From a virus (Duplodnaviria > Heunggongvirae > Uroviricota > Caudoviricetes): a DNA stretch of 4,921 nt. Shown piece by piece: positions 1 to 4,921 of the stretch (position 1 is the stretch's first letter; each line of letters opens with the position of its first letter). The notes beneath the pieces were generated by a model, which saw only the letters and a list, made by a program, of their open reading frames with translations, searched no databases and was not told where the DNA came from. Location: IMG/VR virus record IMGVR_UViG_2529293142_000015, positions 1 through 4,921 of that record; one strand, given 5' to 3'. Made by a program: the position numbers and the translations under genes.

Positions 1-681
1 CATACTGTTAATCGCGTCATCCTGGACGCAACACATCAGAACCGCATTATTGCAGAGCTGGTTATTCCTCCAGAAACGGGCGGATTCTGGATCCGGGAAA
101 TTGGTGTATTTGATGAGCACGGCGATTTAATCGCGGTGGGCAATACTGCCGAAAGTTACAAGCCAGCCGTTGCCGAAGGGTCCGGACGTGCACAAACATT
201 TCGCACCATTCTGACCGTATCCAGCACTGCCACTGTGGCGCTTACCGTGGATAACACCATGGTGATGGCCACAGTGGATTACGTGGATAACAAACTGAAA
301 GAGCATGAACAGTCACGACGTCACCCGGATGCCTCGCTGACCGCAAAAGGCTTTGTTCAACTCAGTAGCGCCACTAACAGCGATTCTGAAACGCTGGCGG
401 CAACGCCAAAAGCAGTTAAGGCCGCGTATGACCTGGCTAACGGGAAATACACCGCACAGGATGCAACGACAGCACAGAAAGGGATAGTTCAGCTCAGCAG
501 CGCGACCAACAGCACATCTGAAATGCTGGCGGCAACGCCAAAGTCGGTAAAGGCAGCCTATGACCTTGCTAACGGGAAATATACCGCTCAGGACGCTACG
601 ACAGCACAAAAAGGATTGTCCAGCTCAGTAGTGCAACCAACAGCGCATCTGAAACGCTTGCCGCGACACCGAAAGCAGTGA
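1..681 (+). CDS. stf: Side tail fibre protein Stf, 5' portion (5'-partial; truncated by a 1-nt deletion at 613-615, then runs out of frame to TGA at 679-681)
   Basis: Frame 1 is open from nt 1 with no stop, so the true start lies upstream. The translation (..[32 protein letters not shown]..) resembles the conserved N-terminal region of lambda Stf / P2 gpH-type fibres, followed by two 44-aa tail-fibre repeats (..[39 protein letters not shown]). After 614 the frame-1 product becomes nonsense ([21 protein letters not shown]) while frame 3 continues the repeat. Confidence 0.85.
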
Positions 682-700
682 AAGCAGCTAATGATAATGC
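349..700 (+). repeat. Tail-fibre repeat array: two complete 132-bp (44-codon) units at 349-480 and 481-612, plus a partial, frameshifted third unit from 613
   Basis: Direct comparison of the DNA and the translations: units start at exactly 349, 481 and 613 (period 132 nt). The copies share the protein motif but differ at many synonymous positions. Confidence 0.85.
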
Positions 701-1832
701 GAATGGTCGGGTACCTTCTGCCCGTAAGGTGAATGGTAAGGCGCTTTCAGCGGATATAACACTGACGCCGAAAGATATTGGTACGCTTAACTCAACAACA
801 ATGTCATTCAGCGGTGGTGCTGGTTGGTTCAAATTAGCAACGGTAACCATGCCACAGGCGAGTTCTGTTGTTTCAATTACGTTGATTGGTGGCGCGGGAT
901 TTAACGTGGGGTCACCTCAACAGGCAGGTATATCTGAACTTGTTTTGCGTGCAGGTAATGGTAATCCGAAGGGGATTACTGGTGCTTTATGGCAGCGCAC
1001 ATCGACAGGGTTTACAAATTTTGCCTGGGTCAATACATCTGGTGATACTTACGATATTTACGTTGCAATCGGAAATTATGCGACTGGTGTAAATATTCAA
1101 TGGGATTATACCAGTAATGCCAGCGTGACTATTCATACGTCACCAGCATATTCTGCTAATAAGCCGGAAGGGTTAACGGACGGTACAGTTTATTCACTCT
1201 ATACGCCATCAGAGCAGTTTTATCCGCCTGGCGCACCAATCCCGTGGCCATCAGATACCGTTCCGTCTGGTTATGCCCTGATGCAGGGGCAGACTTTTGA
1301 CAAATCTGCTTACCCGAAACTTGCAGTTGCTTATCCGTCAGGCGTGATCCCTGATATGCGTGGCTGGACGATTAAGGGCAAGCCCGCCAGTGGTCGTGCC
1401 GTATTGTCTCAGGAACAGGACGGCATTAAATCGCACACCCACAGCGCCAGCGCATCCAGTACGGATTTGGGGACGAAAACCACATCGTCGTTTGATTACG
1501 GTACTAAAACGACCAGTTCATTTGATTACGGCACAAAAACCACAAATAGCGCAGGAGCTCATTCACACAATATACCTGTTGGTCACACTGGCGCGGGGAA
1601 TGGTGTATCAGCCGGTTATAACGCTGCGTTAGGTACTGGTACCACGTCGAGCGCAGGAGGGCATGCTCACAATGTATATATTGGTGCCCATAACCACACT
1701 ATCGGCATTGGTGCTCATGCCCATTCTGTCATTATTGGTCCCCACGGACACACCATCACCGTTAATGCTACGGGGAACGCAGAAAACACCGTAAAAAACA
1801 TCGCATTTAACTATATTGTGAGGCTTGCATAA
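678..1832 (+). CDS. stf: Side tail fibre protein Stf, 3' portion (homology actually begins at 615; 678 is only the first GTG in that frame)
   Basis: Frame 3 from 615 reads [25 protein letters not shown].., a third copy of the tail-fibre repeat, and continues into a distal domain with a [10 protein letters not shown] tandem and many HxH motifs ([33 protein letters not shown]), ending ..[11 protein letters not shown]. This is the pattern of the lambda Stf / T4 gp37-type receptor-binding tip. The stop TAA at 1830-1832 overlaps the tfa ATG. Confidence 0.85.
1470..1550 (+). repeat. 30-bp in-frame tandem repeat (about 2.7 copies) encoding [10 protein letters not shown] in the Stf distal domain
   Basis: Units at 1470-1499 (ggg acg aaa acc aca tcg tcg ttt gat tac), 1500-1529 (ggt act aaa acg acc agt tca ttt gat tac) and a partial copy from 1530 (ggc aca aaa acc aca aat agc). 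The protein is identical between full copies while the DNA differs at wobble positions. Confidence 0.8.
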
Positions 1833-2431
1833 TGACATTCAGAATGAGTGAACAATCACGGACCATAAAAATTTATAATCTGCTGGTCGGAACCAATGAA
1901 TTTATTGGTGAAGGTGATGCATACATTCCACCTCATACAGGTCTGCCTGCAAATAGTACTGATATTGCTCCGCCAGATATTCCAGCTGGCTTCGTGGCTG
2001 TTTTCAACAGTGATGGGGCGTCCTGGCATCTCGTTGAAGATCATCGTGGTAAAACGGTTTATGACGTGGCTTCCGGCGACGCGTTATTTATTTCTGAACT
2101 CGGTCCGTTACCGGAAAATGTCACCTGGTTGTCGCCGGAAGGGGAATATCAGAAGTGGAACGGCATAGCCTGGGTGAAGGATACGGAAGCAGAAAAAGTG
2201 TTCCGGATACGGGAGGCGGAAGAAACAAAAAACAGCCTCATGCAGGTAGCCAGTGAGCATATTTCGCCACTTCAAGATGCCGTAGATTTGAATATTGCAA
2301 CAGAGGAAGAAACATCGTTACTGGTGGCATGGAAGAAGTATCGAGTGCTGCTGAACCGTGTTGATACATCAAGAGCACCGGATATTGAGTGGCCAGCTTC
2401 CCCAGTGGAATCAAGGAGTAAACAAGCATAA
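1832..2431 (+). CDS. tfa: Tail fibre assembly protein (lambda Tfa / P2 gpG family chaperone)
   Basis: 199-aa ORF beginning [61 protein letters not shown].., which closely matches my recollection of lambda Tfa. It lies immediately 3' of stf with a TAATG stop/start overlap, and GAGG sits 8 nt upstream of the ATG. Confidence 0.9.
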
Positions 2432-2525
2432 AGGCTTTCATTTCAAACCATTGTAGTCCAGTTTTTTGTATAGTACCCTGCTCATTACGGATGACATGTG
2501 TGATTTGGAATTTCAGGGTACCATT

Positions 2526-3179
2526 ATGAATGTTATTTCATCGTTAAAACAGCTTAACAGACAGCGAAATATTAAAACAAAAAAGATAAAGACGAAGGCC
2601 AGACTGGCATTTCTAAAAATGCGATACAGAAGGAAAACATCATTACAGCCGGATAGTTATAAAACAGTGTGCATTTTCATGCACATGCAAGCCATTGGTG
2701 ACGGCATCGTTACCTCAGGGTTTATTAAACAACTTCAAAAATCCGGTATGGTGGTATATGTGATAGCACCTTCAAGAGTATCATTCCTCTTTACTGACAT
2801 TGTTGGCGTGGATGCCTTTATATCTTACGAGAAAAATAAATTTAACGAACTAAAAGCAAAGATAAAAAAACTGAATGTAGATCTTGTTGTTGACTTCTCA
2901 AATTTTGATAACACAGCGATAACCAGATTGCAAACACTACATTTACTTAGACCTAAACACTCTATCTGTTTTAATCATCCTGCCGTAACTATTTTTGATA
3001 CAAATATAATCGATAATCGTTCCATTCACACATCTGAAAGAATGAAAAAAGTTTTATCTTTACTAAAGATAAAAAATAATAATTATGCTGCAGCGCTTAA
3101 TTTTGACAACAAAATATATGAACCAGCAAATATTGTTGCAAATGAATTCAGGAAAAAAACAAAAATTAGTTATATTTAA
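2526..3179 (+). CDS. Glycosyltransferase family 9 (heptosyltransferase-like), N-terminal fragment; ends out of frame at TAA 3177-3179 after the A7 tract
   Basis: The translation contains ..KTVCIFMHMQAIGDGIVTSGFIKQL.. (compare the GT9 N-terminal strand plus the S.LGD motif of WaaC/WaaF) and ..VDLVVDFSNFDNTAITRLQTLHLLRPKHSICFNH.. (compare the ..DLVIDLQG...S..L....ga..riG.. region). Start chosen at ATG 2526 because AGGG lies 7 nt upstream; the ORF-track start 2466 is TTG, and ATG 2496 and ATG 2619 are alternatives. The region is very AT-rich. Confidence 0.6.
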   Translation: MNVISSLKQLNRQRNIKTKKIKTKARLAFLKMRYRRKTSLQPDSYKTVCIFMHMQAIGDGIVTSGFIKQLQKSGMVVYVIAPSRVSFLFTDIVGVDAFISYEKNKFNELKAKIKKLNVDLVVDFSNFDNTAITRLQTLHLLRPKHSICFNHPAVTIFDTNIIDNRSIHTSERMKKVLSLLKIKNNNYAAALNFDNKIYEPANIVANEFRKKTKISYI

Positions 3180-3702
3180 CCCTTATGGCTCTCAGAATAG
3201 CAGAACCTTATCTGATGAACAGATAAAAAAAGTACTAGCTTACCTTAATAACCTTAAGGGATATCACACAATAGTTTTTAATATGGGAAAACAGATTAAT
3301 CACAATGGATTGGATAATGTGTCTCTATCTCCATTTTCTGATGCCGGATGTTCATTTGCATTGGTTCGCCATGCTGATTTTGTTATAACTGTAGATACTG
3401 CCATTGTACATTTAGCCAGTGCATTAAACATTAGACAATACTGTATATATAATAACAGAATGCATGAAGGAAAATTCGAAAATAATATTGTGTGGGGGCC
3501 AAACAGCAAATTAGCGACTCAACTCACCACATCCGAACATCTAAGGTCTGAAGGGGGCGACGATATGCATAAATTCGACATAATGATCTTAATTAATGCT
3601 ATCAAACAAGATTTGACAAACGATATACCGAATTACCACTCGGATTTAGGTTGTAAAAATAGTTCCAGAAACCCAGAATTAGAAAGTAGCAATTCTTTAT
3701 AA
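3085..3702 (+). CDS. Glycosyltransferase family 9 (heptosyltransferase-like), C-terminal fragment (homology clear from about 3160; 3085 is only the first ATG in this frame)
   Basis: The translation ..KKQKLVIFNPYGSQNSRTLSDEQIKKVLAYL..GYHTIVFNMG.. and ..FALVRHADFVITVDTAIVHLASALNIRQYCIYN.. parallels the WaaC/WaaF C-terminal domain (..AKFVVSVDTGLSHLTAALDRPNITVYG.. / ..CKAIVTNDSGLMHVAAALNRPLVALYG..). It is in the +1 frame relative to the N-terminal fragment. Removing one A from the A7 tract fuses the two into one GT9-sized protein of about 390 aa from ATG 2526 (about 360 aa from ATG 2619). Confidence 0.6.
   Translation: MLQRLILTTKYMNQQILLQMNSGKKQKLVIFNPYGSQNSRTLSDEQIKKVLAYLNNLKGYHTIVFNMGKQINHNGLDNVSLSPFSDAGCSFALVRHADFVITVDTAIVHLASALNIRQYCIYNNRMHEGKFENNIVWGPNSKLATQLTTSEHLRSEGGDDMHKFDIMILINAIKQDLTNDIPNYHSDLGCKNSSRNPELESSNSL
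3153..3159 (+). repeat. A7 homopolymer at the junction of the two glycosyltransferase reading frames (followed by C and an A5 run)
   Basis: Sequence ggAAAAAAAcAAAAAtta. The upstream frame reads R-K-K-T-K-I-S-Y-I-stop; the +1 frame reads G-K-K-Q-K-L-V-I-F-N-P-Y-G-S. A6 or A9 would give an in-frame fusion (..NEFRKKQKLVIFNPYGS..). Confidence 0.75.
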
Positions 3703-3755
3703 AGTAGAAACCTCAACAGTTTTATCAGGACCTACGATATATTATATAACAACAA

Positions 3756-3789
3756 GCCGCCCATTACCCAATATGAGGGTATTGGCGGC
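3756..3789. terminator. Imperfect GC-rich hairpin between convergent genes; candidate bidirectional or minus-strand terminator
   Basis: The left arm gccgccc-attaccc (3756-3769) pairs with gggtatt-ggcggc (3777-3789): 12 of 14 positions pair, including 6 consecutive GC pairs, around a 7-nt loop aatatga. It lies in the 96-bp gap between the GT9 stop (3702) and the gpU stop (3799-3801). A U-rich run follows only on the minus-strand transcript (rc of 3741-3755 is ttgttgttatataat). Confidence 0.3.
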
Positions 3790-3798
3790 AATGTAAAA

Positions 3799-4293
3799 TC
3801 AGAACAGTCCTTTAACTGAACTGGCCGCGCTGTTAAGAGATGATGTCACCTTATCTTTGAAGCCGGACAGCATATCGCTGAACGATGAGGATTGCAGGCG
3901 CTCCCGCAAATCCTCATCACAGCGTTCAAGGGTCAGTGAAAATTCTATCTTTTTCGCCTTACCGTAGCGATCAAACTCGGAACGGGTCGTATTCGTTCCG
4001 GTCAGGACATACATGCCGTAAATCTGCCCGACACCATCAATCAAAGGCCAGGGTCGTCCTGTATACGCCTGCGTGGTCAGCAGCGACAGCGACACTTCGC
4101 CACCTGTAATTTCAGGATAAAGCACACCAGAAAGCACGATGCGATCATCACCTGCACCGATATACTGCCAGCTTGCTGAACGGTTAACGCGTTCATTTTT
4201 CACATGCCGCCAGCTTTTGTTTTGCTGTAACTGCTGATGCGGCAGCGTGCGCAGCTCAAAAACAAACATGCCGTAGATCATCATCATGGCCAT
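3799..4293 (-). CDS. Phage tail protein, P2 gpU family
   Basis: The 164-aa ORF (MAMMMIYGMFVFELRTLPHQQLQQNKSWRH..LSGVLYPEITGG..LIDGVGQIYGMYVLTG..KIEFSLTLERCDED..) matches the pattern I recall for P2 gpU. GAGGAG sits 2 nt before the first ATG (4293) and 8 nt before the second (4287), so the true start is probably 4287. The upstream gene's stop overlaps the SD (TGAGGAG), indicating coupling. Confidence 0.75.
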   Translation of the reverse strand: MAMMMIYGMFVFELRTLPHQQLQQNKSWRHVKNERVNRSASWQYIGAGDDRIVLSGVLYPEITGGEVSLSLLTTQAYTGRPWPLIDGVGQIYGMYVLTGTNTTRSEFDRYGKAKKIEFSLTLERCDEDLRERLQSSSFSDMLSGFKDKVTSSLNSAASSVKGLF

Positions 4294-4299
4294 GACTCC

Positions 4300-4921
4300 T
4301 CAATCTTTATCGTAAAAACTTCCACGCCCGGCACGGGCGCGCCGTTCCATTTCTGCCCTGATCATTTCACCGACCAGTTTCGCCAGTTCGCGGGGATTCT
4401 GCGTAACAACGTTATGCAGATGAACATGAATTTCACCACCAAATCCGGAGGCAACAGGCTCCCGGTTACGGAAAGTTGCAGGAACTGATGCCACTGGCGA
4501 TCGTATGGCCTCCGCCACCGGGCGGGAGCTGGCCGCAACAACAGGGACCAGCGCCGGAGGCAGCGGAGCCGGAACTACGGGTGTGATATTAATTGCGGGG
4601 GCAGGCTTACTGACCTGCGCAATCTTCCGCTCCTGCCACTCCCCACGAACAGCAAGTGCGCGGGGCAGGTTCTTAAAGACAATATCGCCGGGGCCAATGC
4701 GTTTTTTCGTCTCATCAACCAGCTTACCTGTGTTATCAGCAATTTTGCTGAGTCTGCGTAGCGTCCCGGTATTGCTGTCTGTGAGCGGTTTGTTGTCTTT
4801 GGGCTTATCACCTCCGGTGCCATTGCCATTTTCCACAGGCTTCGGCGGATTGATTTTCGCCAGGTCCCCCTGAAGCAAGGCAACCTTGTCCTGAAGAATG
4901 GCCGCACGCTGTGCGTCTTCG
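4300..4921 (-). CDS. Tail tape-measure protein, C-terminal portion (P2 gpT-like; 5' end beyond the right window edge)
   Basis: The minus-strand frame is open from the window edge (EDAQRAAILQDKVALLQGDLAK..) to TGA at 4300-4302; the 4878 'start' in the ORF track is only a TTG. It sits immediately upstream of and coupled to the gpU-like gene, as for T-U in P2-type tail operons. It has a Pro/Ala-rich low-complexity stretch and a GC-rich composition. The assignment rests on synteny and general character, not a specific motif. Confidence 0.6.
   Translation of the reverse strand, partial: EDAQRAAILQDKVALLQGDLAKINPPKPVENGNGTGGDKPKDNKPLTDSNTGTLRRLSKIADNTGKLVDETKKRIGPGDIVFKNLPRALAVRGEWQERKIAQVSKPAPAINITPVVPAPLPPALVPVVAASSRPVAEAIRSPVASVPATFRNREPVASGFGGEIHVHLHNVVTQNPRELAKLVGEMIRAEMERRARAGRGSFYDKD

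What the first reader, a model, noticed from the sequence alone, without database searches (positions are those of the whole stretch)
2432..3750. AT-rich cargo gene between tail-fibre and tail modules encodes a GT9 (heptosyltransferase-like) glycosyltransferase
G+C drops abruptly right after the tfa stop (hand counts of about 23% and 35% in two 60-nt samples, against about 57-73% in the flanks), the signature of horizontally acquired cargo at the classic insertion spot downstream of tail-fibre genes. The encoded protein carries GT9 hallmark motifs in both halves (N-terminal ..AIGDG.. strand and C-terminal ..FVITVDTAIVHLASALN..). GT9 enzymes are typically LPS inner-core heptosyltransferases (WaaC/WaaF/WaaQ) or related sugar transferases, so a phage-borne copy suggests lysogenic conversion of LPS or another surface glycan, for example receptor masking or superinfection exclusion. 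Phage glycan-modifying cargo that I know of is mostly the gtrABC or O-acetylase type, so a GT9 gene here would be unusual.
Basis: partly seen in the sequence, partly recalled or inferred. Interest (0 to 1): 0.8.

Follow-up and report, generated by a model that had tools for sequence, protein, structure and literature searches.

The report
Prophage-borne LPS-type GT9 glycosyltransferase gene
An AT-rich gene inserted after the tail-fibre genes of an E. coli P2-family prophage encodes a heptosyltransferase-like (GT9) enzyme that most likely adds a sugar to the LPS core; the same gene family rides behind the tail fibres of unrelated prophages, but the copy here is broken by two one-base losses that look like sequencing errors.

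Summary

New here: relatives at 45-57% identity sit inside chromosomal waa/LPS loci. Others sit directly behind tail-fibre genes in at least three unrelated prophage types, often paired with a hexapeptide acyltransferase, GT2 or GT25. O157-type prophages hold such an acyltransferase in the same slot.

The best reading is cytoplasmic LPS-core modification (lysogenic conversion or receptor masking). This is inferred, not shown.

Corrections: the intact allele has A8-C-A6 where the window has A7-C-A5, so the window lost two bases and does not carry one extra A. No complete genome shares this, and a third homopolymer loss breaks the fibre gene, so an assembly artefact is likely. No promoter was found. 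The finding is a new variant of a known kind, of moderate interest.

The parts
2405..3743 (.). AT-rich cargo segment (about 1.34 kb, G+C about 0.34) inserted between tfa and gpU
   Evidence: Homology to O157 prophage L093, which carries different cargo, ends at 2404 and resumes at 3744. The segment is present in 49 of 5,426 genomes.
2526..3702 (+). GT9-family glycosyltransferase gene. The intact form is 1179 nt / 392 aa. Here it is 2 nt short and split into 2526..3179 and the frame that ends at 3702.
3153..3165 (+). Frameshift site: A7-C-A5 here against A8-C-A6 (or AAGAAAAAC-A6) in all intact alleles
   Evidence: None of the 49 complete genomes shares the window's tract.
2526..2660 (+). Codons 1-45: very basic N-terminal helix (14 K/R, 1 D/E), absent from WaaC/WaaF and conserved in the family. 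Inferred to be a membrane-surface anchor.
   Evidence: Alignments A1/A2. Model helix 2-33. Charge and hydropathy.
2697..2702 (+). Codons G58-D59: the invariant GD motif, equivalent to WaaC Gly12-Asp13 (catalytic base)
   Evidence: Invariant in 35-36 sequences. It lies at the strand 1 / helix 1 junction of the model. The role of Asp13 is from bioRxiv 10.1101/2021.06.16.448588 and PMC3559599. The equivalence rests on an ungapped motif alignment and is an inference.
3394..3411 (+). Codons D291-T-A-I-V-H296: the heptosyltransferase signature D(T/S)(G/A)xxH, equivalent to WaaC D261...H266
   Evidence: hhalign mapping. D291, T292 and H296 are invariant. The signature definition is from PMC3559599.
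1832..2431 (+). Tail-fibre assembly gene (P2 G / Caudo_TAP), immediately upstream. No terminator lies between it and the GT9 gene.
   Evidence: Pfam PF02413, E 2e-44. Terminator scan and folding.
1..1832 (+). Tail-fibre gene H (the 5' end lies outside the window), broken by a 1-nt loss at 613-615
   Evidence: Pfam Phage_tail_fib, Phage_fiber_2 and Collar. Indel found against L002/L087/L088.
3799..4293 (-). gpU tail gene, convergent with the GT9 gene
   Evidence: Pfam PF06995, E 1.5e-38.
3756..3789 (-). GC-rich hairpin (GCCGCC...GGCGGC) followed by UUGUUGUU on the minus strand. It is the terminator of the tail operon and is backbone, not cargo. It is the only hairpin available to end GT9 transcription.
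   Evidence: Fold at -21.6 kcal/mol, z -2.05. It lies inside the region shared with L093.
2473..2521 (+). Leader hairpin whose 8-bp stem (2473-2480 / 2514-2521) covers the AGGG Shine-Dalgarno-like motif 7 nt before the ATG
   Evidence: Fold at -18.7 kcal/mol, z -2.30, with 7 of 200 shuffles as good. The leader is invariant among E. coli alleles, so no covariation test is possible.
4300..4921 (-). 3' end of the tape-measure gene (gpT)
   Evidence: ORF. Annotation of the matching loci.

Best explanation
The segment is a horizontally acquired cargo gene of a P2-family prophage. It sits in the variable slot just after the tail-fibre (H) and fibre-assembly (G/tfa) genes. It encodes a soluble, peripherally membrane-associated GT-B enzyme of CAZy-type family 9. 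Working model: at the cytoplasmic face of the inner membrane it transfers a sugar, most likely a heptose from ADP-heptose, onto the lipid A-core oligosaccharide before export. The probable target is the outer core or a side branch. This would alter the LPS core displayed by the lysogen. The likely benefit is masking of a core receptor, giving exclusion of related core-binding phages or tailocins and less re-adsorption of progeny, possibly with side effects on O-antigen ligation or serum and bile resistance. Shown: cargo status, GT9 fold, intact catalytic and donor motifs in the family, chromosomal relatives in LPS loci, and recurrent placement behind tail fibres in unrelated prophages. Inferred: acceptor, donor sugar, timing of expression and phenotype. 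In this particular sequence the gene is out of frame by two single-A losses. I think these are more likely an assembly or basecalling artefact (about 60-65%) than a true pseudogene.
For: Cargo status: 49 of 5,426 genomes carry it, against about 4,400 that match the flanks. G+C is 0.33 against 0.49-0.54. The breakpoints are 2404/3744. It occurs in near-complete P2-family prophages.

Active site: G58-D59, D291-T292 and H296 are invariant. S223 and R227 are nearly invariant and align to WaaC T188 and K192. DTAIVH fits the published signature D(T/S)(G/A)xxH.

LPS link: P0009 (55% identity) lies within a waa operon, between GT8/GT8C genes and waaA-coaD-mutM. The Gilliamella copy lies among four GT8 genes, MsbA-like genes and a second GT9. 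The Orbus copy is beside a GT2, a GT9 and EptA-like sulfatases. Two copies lie at asmA-galF, ahead of O-antigen genes. Partners on mobile elements are GT25, GT2 and hexapeptide acyltransferase.

Phage linkage: the gene lies directly after fibre/Caudo_TAP genes in E217/Pam3-like, Mu-like and other Providencia-type prophages. The same E. coli slot holds a hexapeptide acyltransferase in O157-type prophages. That protein is 40% identical to the acyltransferase beside the Providencia phage GT9.

Concept precedent: glycosyltransferases in the tail-fibre hypervariable region of P2-like xenorhabdicin loci have been proposed to tailor LPS for self-resistance (PMC13280938). Receptor-masking genes are known to sit next to RBP genes (PMC11990801).

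Artefact reading: all three indels against relatives are 1-nt homopolymer contractions, and two of them are 6 nt apart. None of the 49 genomes shares them.
Against: There is no experimental datum for any member of this clade, and no paper mentions the accessions. No sigma-70 promoter above chance was found upstream, and no RfaH ops element. With no terminator after tfa, the gene may be read through from the late tail-fibre operon. That fits lysogenic conversion poorly. NCBIfam equivalog scores for WaaQ and WaaC are far below cut-off (27 against 467; 23 against 185). The enzyme is therefore not an orthologue of any characterised heptosyltransferase, and the donor sugar is not established. Lys192 is Arg here, and the Glu222 equivalent is not conserved in the alignment. 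The fibre tip is not specific to this cargo: a prophage carrying the acyltransferase has a tip 95% identical. PADLOC has no match. The copy in this window is out of frame, so if the sequence is correct it makes no enzyme here.
Confidence: 0.6

Rival explanations
1. The frameshift is real. In this strain the cargo gene, and the fibre gene H, are decaying pseudogenes of a defective prophage, so nothing functional is made here.
For: Two genes in 4.9 kb are broken. Several carriers are obvious prophage remnants (L001, L002). One genome has the gene disrupted by an IS element (CH468). Natural indels also favour homopolymers.
Against: Two separate 1-nt contractions 6 nt apart, plus a third in a G run, against only 8 substitutions over 3.2 kb relative to L001. 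This is the typical pattern of homopolymer under-calling. All 49 complete genomes keep the in-frame tract length.
Confidence: 0.35
2. The enzyme does modify LPS, but the selected benefit goes to the host (serum, bile or antimicrobial-peptide resistance, immune evasion, altered O-antigen attachment) and not to phage exclusion.
For: The LPS-locus relatives are the same as for the main model. Carriers come from many hosts and pathotypes. There is no exclusive link to one fibre tip.
Against: The gene is repeatedly placed directly behind receptor-binding genes in unrelated prophages. The two benefits are also not mutually exclusive.
Confidence: 0.2
3. The acceptor is another surface glycan (O-antigen, ECA, capsule) and not the LPS core.
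For: Two chromosomal relatives sit at asmA-galF, at the head of O-antigen-type clusters. Partner genes (GT2, acyltransferase) are also common in O-antigen loci.
Against: GT9 enzymes characterised so far act on lipid A-core. The closest contexts are waa operons with WaaA, WaaP-type kinase and GT8C enzymes. GT25 partners are LOS-core enzymes.
Confidence: 0.12
4. It is a protein heptosyltransferase of the TibC/AAH type that glycosylates an autotransporter or the phage's own Ser-rich tail fibre.
For: It is a GT9-like fold next to a fibre gene with Ser/Thr-rich repeats. An Aah/TibC-like protein is annotated in phage metagenomes.
Confidence: 0.04
5. The poly-A tract is a phase-variation switch, as in LOS glycosyltransferases of Haemophilus and Neisseria, and the window shows the OFF state.
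For: The break lies in a homopolymer inside a surface-glycan gene.
Against: All 49 complete genomes have the same in-frame length. In the commonest allele the run is interrupted (AAGAAAAAC). Providencia homologues have different residues at this point. The OFF state needs two simultaneous slips.
Confidence: 0.04

Closest known systems
LPS heptosyltransferases WaaC (HepI), WaaF (HepII), WaaQ (HepIII) and the K-12 outer-core WaaU (CAZy GT9)
   Different: Identity is only 12-15%. NCBIfam equivalog scores are far below threshold. The family has an extra 45-residue highly basic N-terminal helix, and the E. coli clade has a disordered C-terminal tail of about 22 residues. The gene is carried by prophages. 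Donor and acceptor are untested.
Seroconverting prophage modules (gtrABC glucosylation; Oac/OafA O-acetylases of Shigella, Salmonella and E. coli phages)
   Same: Temperate-phage cargo of low G+C that changes a surface glycan used as a phage receptor. The expected outcome is superinfection exclusion or antigenic change.
   Different: Those systems act on the O-antigen at the periplasmic face, through Und-P-sugar carriers or integral-membrane acyltransferases, and usually sit near int/att. This protein is a soluble cytoplasmic GT9 with no transmembrane segment. It is predicted to act on lipid A-core before export and sits behind the tail-fibre genes.
P2 Z/fun slot and receptor-masking genes encoded next to RBP genes (T5 llp, T1/phi80 cor)
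   Same: The same genomic logic: a non-structural gene beside the receptor-binding module that protects the infected or lysogenic cell. The slot lies after G/tfa, which is where P2 carries Z/fun (from my own knowledge of the P2 map).
   Different: Llp and Cor are small lipoproteins that block protein receptors. Here an enzyme would remodel a glycan receptor.
Glycosyltransferase genes in the hypervariable tail-fibre region of P2-like xenorhabdicin tailocin loci (PMC13280938)
   Same: P2-type contractile tail locus with glycosyltransferases beside the fibre genes, proposed to tailor LPS for self-resistance.
   Different: Those are described generically as a glycosyltransferase and a mannosyltransferase. 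Homology to this GT9 clade was not tested here. They belong to tailocins, not an integrating phage.
TibC/AAH bacterial autotransporter heptosyltransferases
   Same: GT9-like fold and ADP-heptose donor.

Membership tests
CAZy/Pfam glycosyltransferase family 9 (PF01075) | Profile match above the curated threshold | tested here: met
   26.4 bits against a gathering score of 22, E 5e-6. Only the C-terminal domain matches (residues 210-311). Many homologues carry precomputed PF01075 hits.
CAZy/Pfam glycosyltransferase family 9 (PF01075) | GT-B two-Rossmann fold closest to solved GT9 structures | tested here: met
CAZy/Pfam glycosyltransferase family 9 (PF01075) | N-terminal catalytic Asp (WaaC Asp13) in a GD motif after strand 1 | tested here: met
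   G58-D59 are invariant in 35-36 sequences. They lie at the strand 47-51 / helix 57-72 junction. There is an ungapped match to WaaC 1-19. hhalign did not cover this region, so the equivalence is inferred.
Heptosyltransferases (ADP-heptose donors) | Signature D(T/S)(G/A)xxH (WaaC D261...H266), which contacts the heptose | tested here: met
   D291-T-A-I-V-H296. D, T and H are invariant and align to WaaC 261-266. The signature is from PMC3559599.
Heptosyltransferases (ADP-heptose donors) | Lys192 and Glu222 equivalents (heptose O5/O6 and ribose contacts) | tested here: inconclusive
   R227 (nearly invariant) aligns to K192, and N259 aligns to E222 in a low-confidence stretch. PMC3559599 notes that these positions vary among proven heptosyltransferases.
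Heptosyltransferases (ADP-heptose donors) | Demonstrated transfer of heptose to an LPS acceptor | not testable with these tools
   Needs an enzymology or LPS mass-spectrometry experiment.
WaaC / WaaQ orthologues (NCBIfam equivalogs TIGR02193, NF007742) | Score above the equivalog cut-off | tested here: not met
   22.8 against 185.3, and 27.3 against 467. It is not an orthologue of the inner-core enzymes.
TibC/AAH protein heptosyltransferases | Closest fold match, a conserved Cys cluster (iron finger) and an adjacent autotransporter substrate gene | tested here: not met
Phage moron (autonomous cargo cassette) | Deviant composition and presence/absence polymorphism within an otherwise conserved phage backbone | tested here: met
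Phage moron (autonomous cargo cassette) | Own promoter and terminator | tested here: inconclusive
   No promoter above chance was found. The best -10 is TATAGT at 2469-2474, with a poor -35. There is no terminator between tfa and the gene. The only downstream hairpin is the backbone gpU terminator.
gtrABC / Oac-type seroconversion modules | Integral-membrane components (GtrA flippase, Gtr type-specific transferase, or acyltransferase-3) | tested here: not met
   It is a single gene. The maximum 19-residue hydropathy is 1.53, within a Rossmann strand. There are no such Pfam hits.
Phase-variable LOS glycosyltransferases | A homopolymer tract conserved as a tract but variable in length between isolates | tested here: not met
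   All 49 genomes are in-frame and of equal length. The tract is interrupted by G in most alleles.
Catalogued anti-phage defence systems (PADLOC-DB 2.0) | Match to any defence-system protein model | tested here: not met
   No family at E up to 1.

The most novel reading that the evidence does not exclude
This clade is a portable, phage-borne LPS-core remodelling enzyme. It would be a cytoplasmic GT9, probably a heptosyltransferase, that temperate phages of several unrelated tail types carry directly behind their receptor-binding genes, interchangeably or together with acyltransferase, GT2 and GT25 partners. Its role would be to mask a core-oligosaccharide receptor. That would make it a core-level counterpart of O-antigen seroconversion, a mode of lysogenic conversion and superinfection exclusion that I could not find described experimentally.
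Probability: 0.4. Interest if true: 0.6.

Novelty: new variant of a known kind. Interest (0 to 1): 0.45.

Why it matters
Phage-driven change of surface glycans is well known for O-antigens. Modification of the LPS core by a phage-borne cytoplasmic glycosyltransferase has not, as far as I could find, been demonstrated. The core is the terminal receptor for many coliphages, including P2-type phages, and for tailocins. A mobile core-tailoring gene would therefore affect phage host range, phage-therapy cocktail design, tailocin sensitivity and core typing of E. coli. It could also affect O-antigen ligation and innate immune recognition. The recurring cargo set behind tail-fibre genes (GT9, hexapeptide acyltransferase, GT2, GT25) gives a concrete, testable list of candidate receptor-masking genes.

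Tried and rejected
1. Anti-phage defence system: PADLOC gave no hit. The two P2-hotspot papers do not mention glycosyltransferases.
2. Phase variation at the poly-A tract: rejected, because there is no length variation in 49 genomes and the tract is interrupted in most alleles.
3. TibC-type protein heptosylation: rejected on fold rank and the absence of a Cys cluster.
4. Matched pairing of fibre tip and cargo: not supported, because an acyltransferase-bearing prophage has a fibre tip 95% identical.
5. Own promoter or RfaH ops element: none found.
6. Isolated phage genomes: tblastn against 50,697 phage records found only 23%-identical hits in two Campylobacter phage records, so the gene is known only from prophages.
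7. Sequence search of the PDB with the family profile was uninformative (WaaC E 0.09). Structure comparison was needed.
8. Literature search for the protein accessions and the PHROG id found nothing. A search for GT9 together with tail fibre assembly also found nothing.
9. The AFDB fold library was unavailable.
10. Covariation support for the leader hairpin: impossible, because the leader is invariant.
Full report
WHAT IS IN THE WINDOW. The 4,921-base window is the tail region of a P2-family prophage of Escherichia coli. On the plus strand lie the tail-fibre gene H (Phage_tail_fib, two Phage_fiber_2 repeats, Collar domain; its 5' end is outside the window and it stops at 1832) and the fibre-assembly gene G/tfa (1832-2431; Caudo_TAP, E 2e-44). 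On the minus strand lie gpU (3799-4293; Phage_P2_GpU, E 1.5e-38) and the end of the tape-measure gene (from 4300 to the window's end). Between tfa and gpU lies the finding.

CHECK OF THE OBSERVATION. G+C is 0.339 for 2432-3798 and 0.331 for the gene, against 0.491 upstream and 0.536 downstream. In 200-nt windows it falls from 0.475 to 0.36 across position 2400, reaches 0.265 at 3001-3200 and recovers by 3800. Comparison with an O157:H7 prophage that carries different cargo fixes the boundaries. Homology stops at 2404, inside the last 27 nt of tfa, and resumes at 3744. The segment is accessory: 49 of 5,426 complete E. coli genomes have it, whereas roughly 4,400 match the flanking tail genes. 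In strains M9 and STEC1585 it sits in a near-complete P2-family prophage. In others it sits in remnants.

THE FRAMESHIFT. The gene starts at ATG 2526 and ends at 3702, but it is split into two ORFs. Intact alleles are 1,179 nt / 392 aa (WP_040082324.1, WP_001100987.1). At the break they read A8-C-A6, or AAGAAAAAC-A6, where the window has A7 (3153-3159)-C-A5 (3161-3165). One A has therefore been lost from each of two adjacent runs. The only other indel between the window and its relatives is also a single-base homopolymer contraction, at 613-615, and it breaks gene H. None of the 49 complete genomes shares the window's tract. Three homopolymer contractions against only 8 substitutions in 3.2 kb relative to the closest relative is the pattern of basecalling or assembly error. 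I rate artefact at about 60-65% and true pseudogene at about 35%. A phase-variation switch is unlikely, because the tract length is constant across genomes and the A run is interrupted by G in the commonest allele.

Across the family, G58-D59, D291-T292 and H296 are invariant. I verified the WaaC sequence against PDB 2gt1 and profile-aligned it to the family. D291/T292/H296 fall on WaaC D261/T262/H266, R227 on K192 and S223 on T188. These are the residues reported to bind the heptose hydroxyls and the pyrophosphate, and Asp13 is the catalytic base (bioRxiv 10.1101/2021.06.16.448588). DTAIVH fits the published heptosyltransferase signature D(T/S)(G/A)xxH (PMC3559599). G58-D59 matches WaaC G12-D13 in an ungapped alignment of strand 1 and helix 1. 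This step is an inference, because hhalign did not cover it.

Two features set the clade apart. It has a 45-residue N-terminal extension that forms one long helix with 14 K/R and 1 D/E (family median net charge +11). It has no transmembrane segment. I infer a peripheral anchor on the anionic inner-membrane surface.

WHERE THE RELATIVES LIVE. The clade is small: 35 clusters in a 5.8-billion-protein search, and 118 representatives at E up to 1e-30 in the exhaustive search.

Chromosomal members sit in LPS loci.
- P0009 (55% identity) lies inside a waa operon: WaaL-like, GT9, GT4, WaaP-type kinase, GT4, two GT8+GT8C genes, the homologue, then WaaA-CoaD-MutM-rpmGB.
- The Gilliamella copy lies among four GT8 genes, two MsbA-like transporters and a second GT9.
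- The Orbus copy is beside a GT2, another GT9 and two EptA-like sulfatase-family genes.
- Two further copies lie between asmA and a galF-like gene, at the head of O-antigen-type clusters.

Mobile members repeat the window's layout in unrelated phages.
- In Providencia stuartii and P. alcalifaciens the gene follows the Collar-domain fibre and Caudo_TAP of an E217/Pam3-like myovirus prophage.
- In P. rettgeri it follows the fibre and Caudo_TAP of a Mu-like tail and is paired with a GT2.
- In another contig it follows Caudo_TAP, with an EptA-like gene nearby.
- Two copies on integrase-bearing elements are paired with GT25, a family of LOS-core transferases.
- One copy follows a portal gene.

The tfa genes next to the E. 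coli and Providencia copies are 44% identical. In every phage the gene is more AT-rich than its surroundings.

In O157:H7-type P2-family prophages the very same slot holds a 190-aa hexapeptide-repeat acyltransferase, annotated 'serine O-acetyltransferase', with G+C 0.34. This protein is 40% identical over its full length (E 2e-44) to the acyltransferase that sits beside the GT9 gene in the P. alcalifaciens prophage. The slot after the tail-fibre genes is thus a recurrent home for a small set of glycan-tailoring genes.

HOW IT MOST LIKELY WORKS. Shown: it is cargo, it is a GT9 with an intact active site in the family, its nearest relatives are LPS-locus genes, and it travels behind receptor-binding genes. 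Inferred: it adds a sugar, probably a heptose, to lipid A-core at the cytoplasmic face. The position of the waa-operon relative, after the GT8 outer-core enzymes, points to an outer-core or side-branch addition. The altered core would mask a receptor for related phages or tailocins. The general logic is established for other systems: receptor-masking genes sit next to RBP genes, and temperate phages glycosylate or acetylate glycan receptors (PMC11990801). The same idea has been proposed for glycosyltransferases in the tail-fibre region of P2-like xenorhabdicin loci (PMC13280938).

Weak points:
- No promoter above chance and no ops element were found.
- No terminator separates tfa from the gene, unlike the acyltransferase-type cargo, where a strong hairpin follows tfa. 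Expression may therefore be late read-through and not lysogenic.
- The fibre tip is not specific to the cargo.
- The donor sugar is unproven.

COMPARISON AND NOVELTY. The GT9 identity is already in RefSeq annotation, and the protein is in PHROG 36326 ('unknown function'). GT9-like proteins are also annotated in phage metagenomes. I found no paper on this protein or on a phage-borne GT9 that modifies LPS. Compared with gtrABC/Oac seroconversion it differs in enzyme class, cellular compartment, predicted target (core, not O-antigen) and genomic position. I therefore class it as a new variant of a known kind (phage-encoded surface-glycan modification), of moderate interest. The specific copy in this window is probably mis-assembled or defective.

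Noticed in passing
window 608-617: The tail-fibre gene H is also out of frame. The window has AAAAAGGATTG where relatives have AAAAAGGGATTG or AAAAAGGAATTG. This splits H into ORFs ending at 681 and starting at 678. With the two A-run losses in the GT9 gene, all three indels in the window are homopolymer contractions.
   Followed up: partly
L093 4578-5150 (minus strand); L098 4623-5195; L004 11167-11733: O157:H7-type P2-family prophages carry a 190-aa hexapeptide-repeat acyltransferase ('serine O-acetyltransferase', G+C 0.34) in the same tfa-gpU slot. It is 40% identical (E 2e-44) to the acyltransferase next to the phage GT9 in Providencia alcalifaciens. It is a candidate O-acetylating receptor modifier.
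   Followed up: partly
window 3799-4921; L087 23898-29473; L001 21370-26955: The FI-FII-E-T-U tail block is inverted relative to the canonical P2/186 gene order (my knowledge of the P2 map). H-G-cargo therefore converges on gpU, and gene D follows head-to-head with FI. In L087 and L088 the D-like gene is annotated at only 801 nt, against 1110 nt in L001.
   Followed up: no
window 2473-2521: A leader hairpin (8-bp stem GUACCCUG/CAGGGUAC, -18.7 kcal/mol, z -2.3) would occlude the AGGG ribosome-binding motif of the GT9 gene. The leader is invariant among five E. coli alleles, so covariation cannot be assessed.
   Followed up: partly
L096 3557-4309; L097 3808-4551; L090 8144-9118; L095 1371-2888: Mobile copies of the GT9 gene are paired with other LPS-type genes: GT25 (twice, on integrase-bearing elements), GT2 (30% identical to the GT2 beside the chromosomal Orbus copy), and an EptA-like sulfatase-family gene near a Caudo_TAP gene.
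   Followed up: partly
phrog_36326 against residues 52-392 of the protein: The PHROG profile for this protein starts at residue 52, so phage-derived gene calls seem to use the internal Met52. The conserved, highly basic residues 1-45 show that the true start is the ATG at window 2526.
   Followed up: partly
MG065691.1 142249-143205; MG065686.1 30918-31874: The only matches in 50,697 deposited phage genomes are 23%-identical GT9-like ORFs in two unannotated 174-kb Campylobacter phage records (A11a, A18a).
   Followed up: no
window 340-680: Gene H contains tandem copies of a unit of about 40 residues (..[41 protein letters not shown]..). GT9-bearing prophages differ in how much of this region they share with the window (matches start at 1, 346 or 711), which suggests repeat-number variation in the fibre shaft.
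   Followed up: no
L087 6189-7464 and 30913-32660; L088 5008-6286: The same prophages carry further accessory genes (ParM/ParR-like partition pair, PIN-domain protein, Hok/Gef toxin, Com/methyltransferase) at other variable positions.
   Followed up: no
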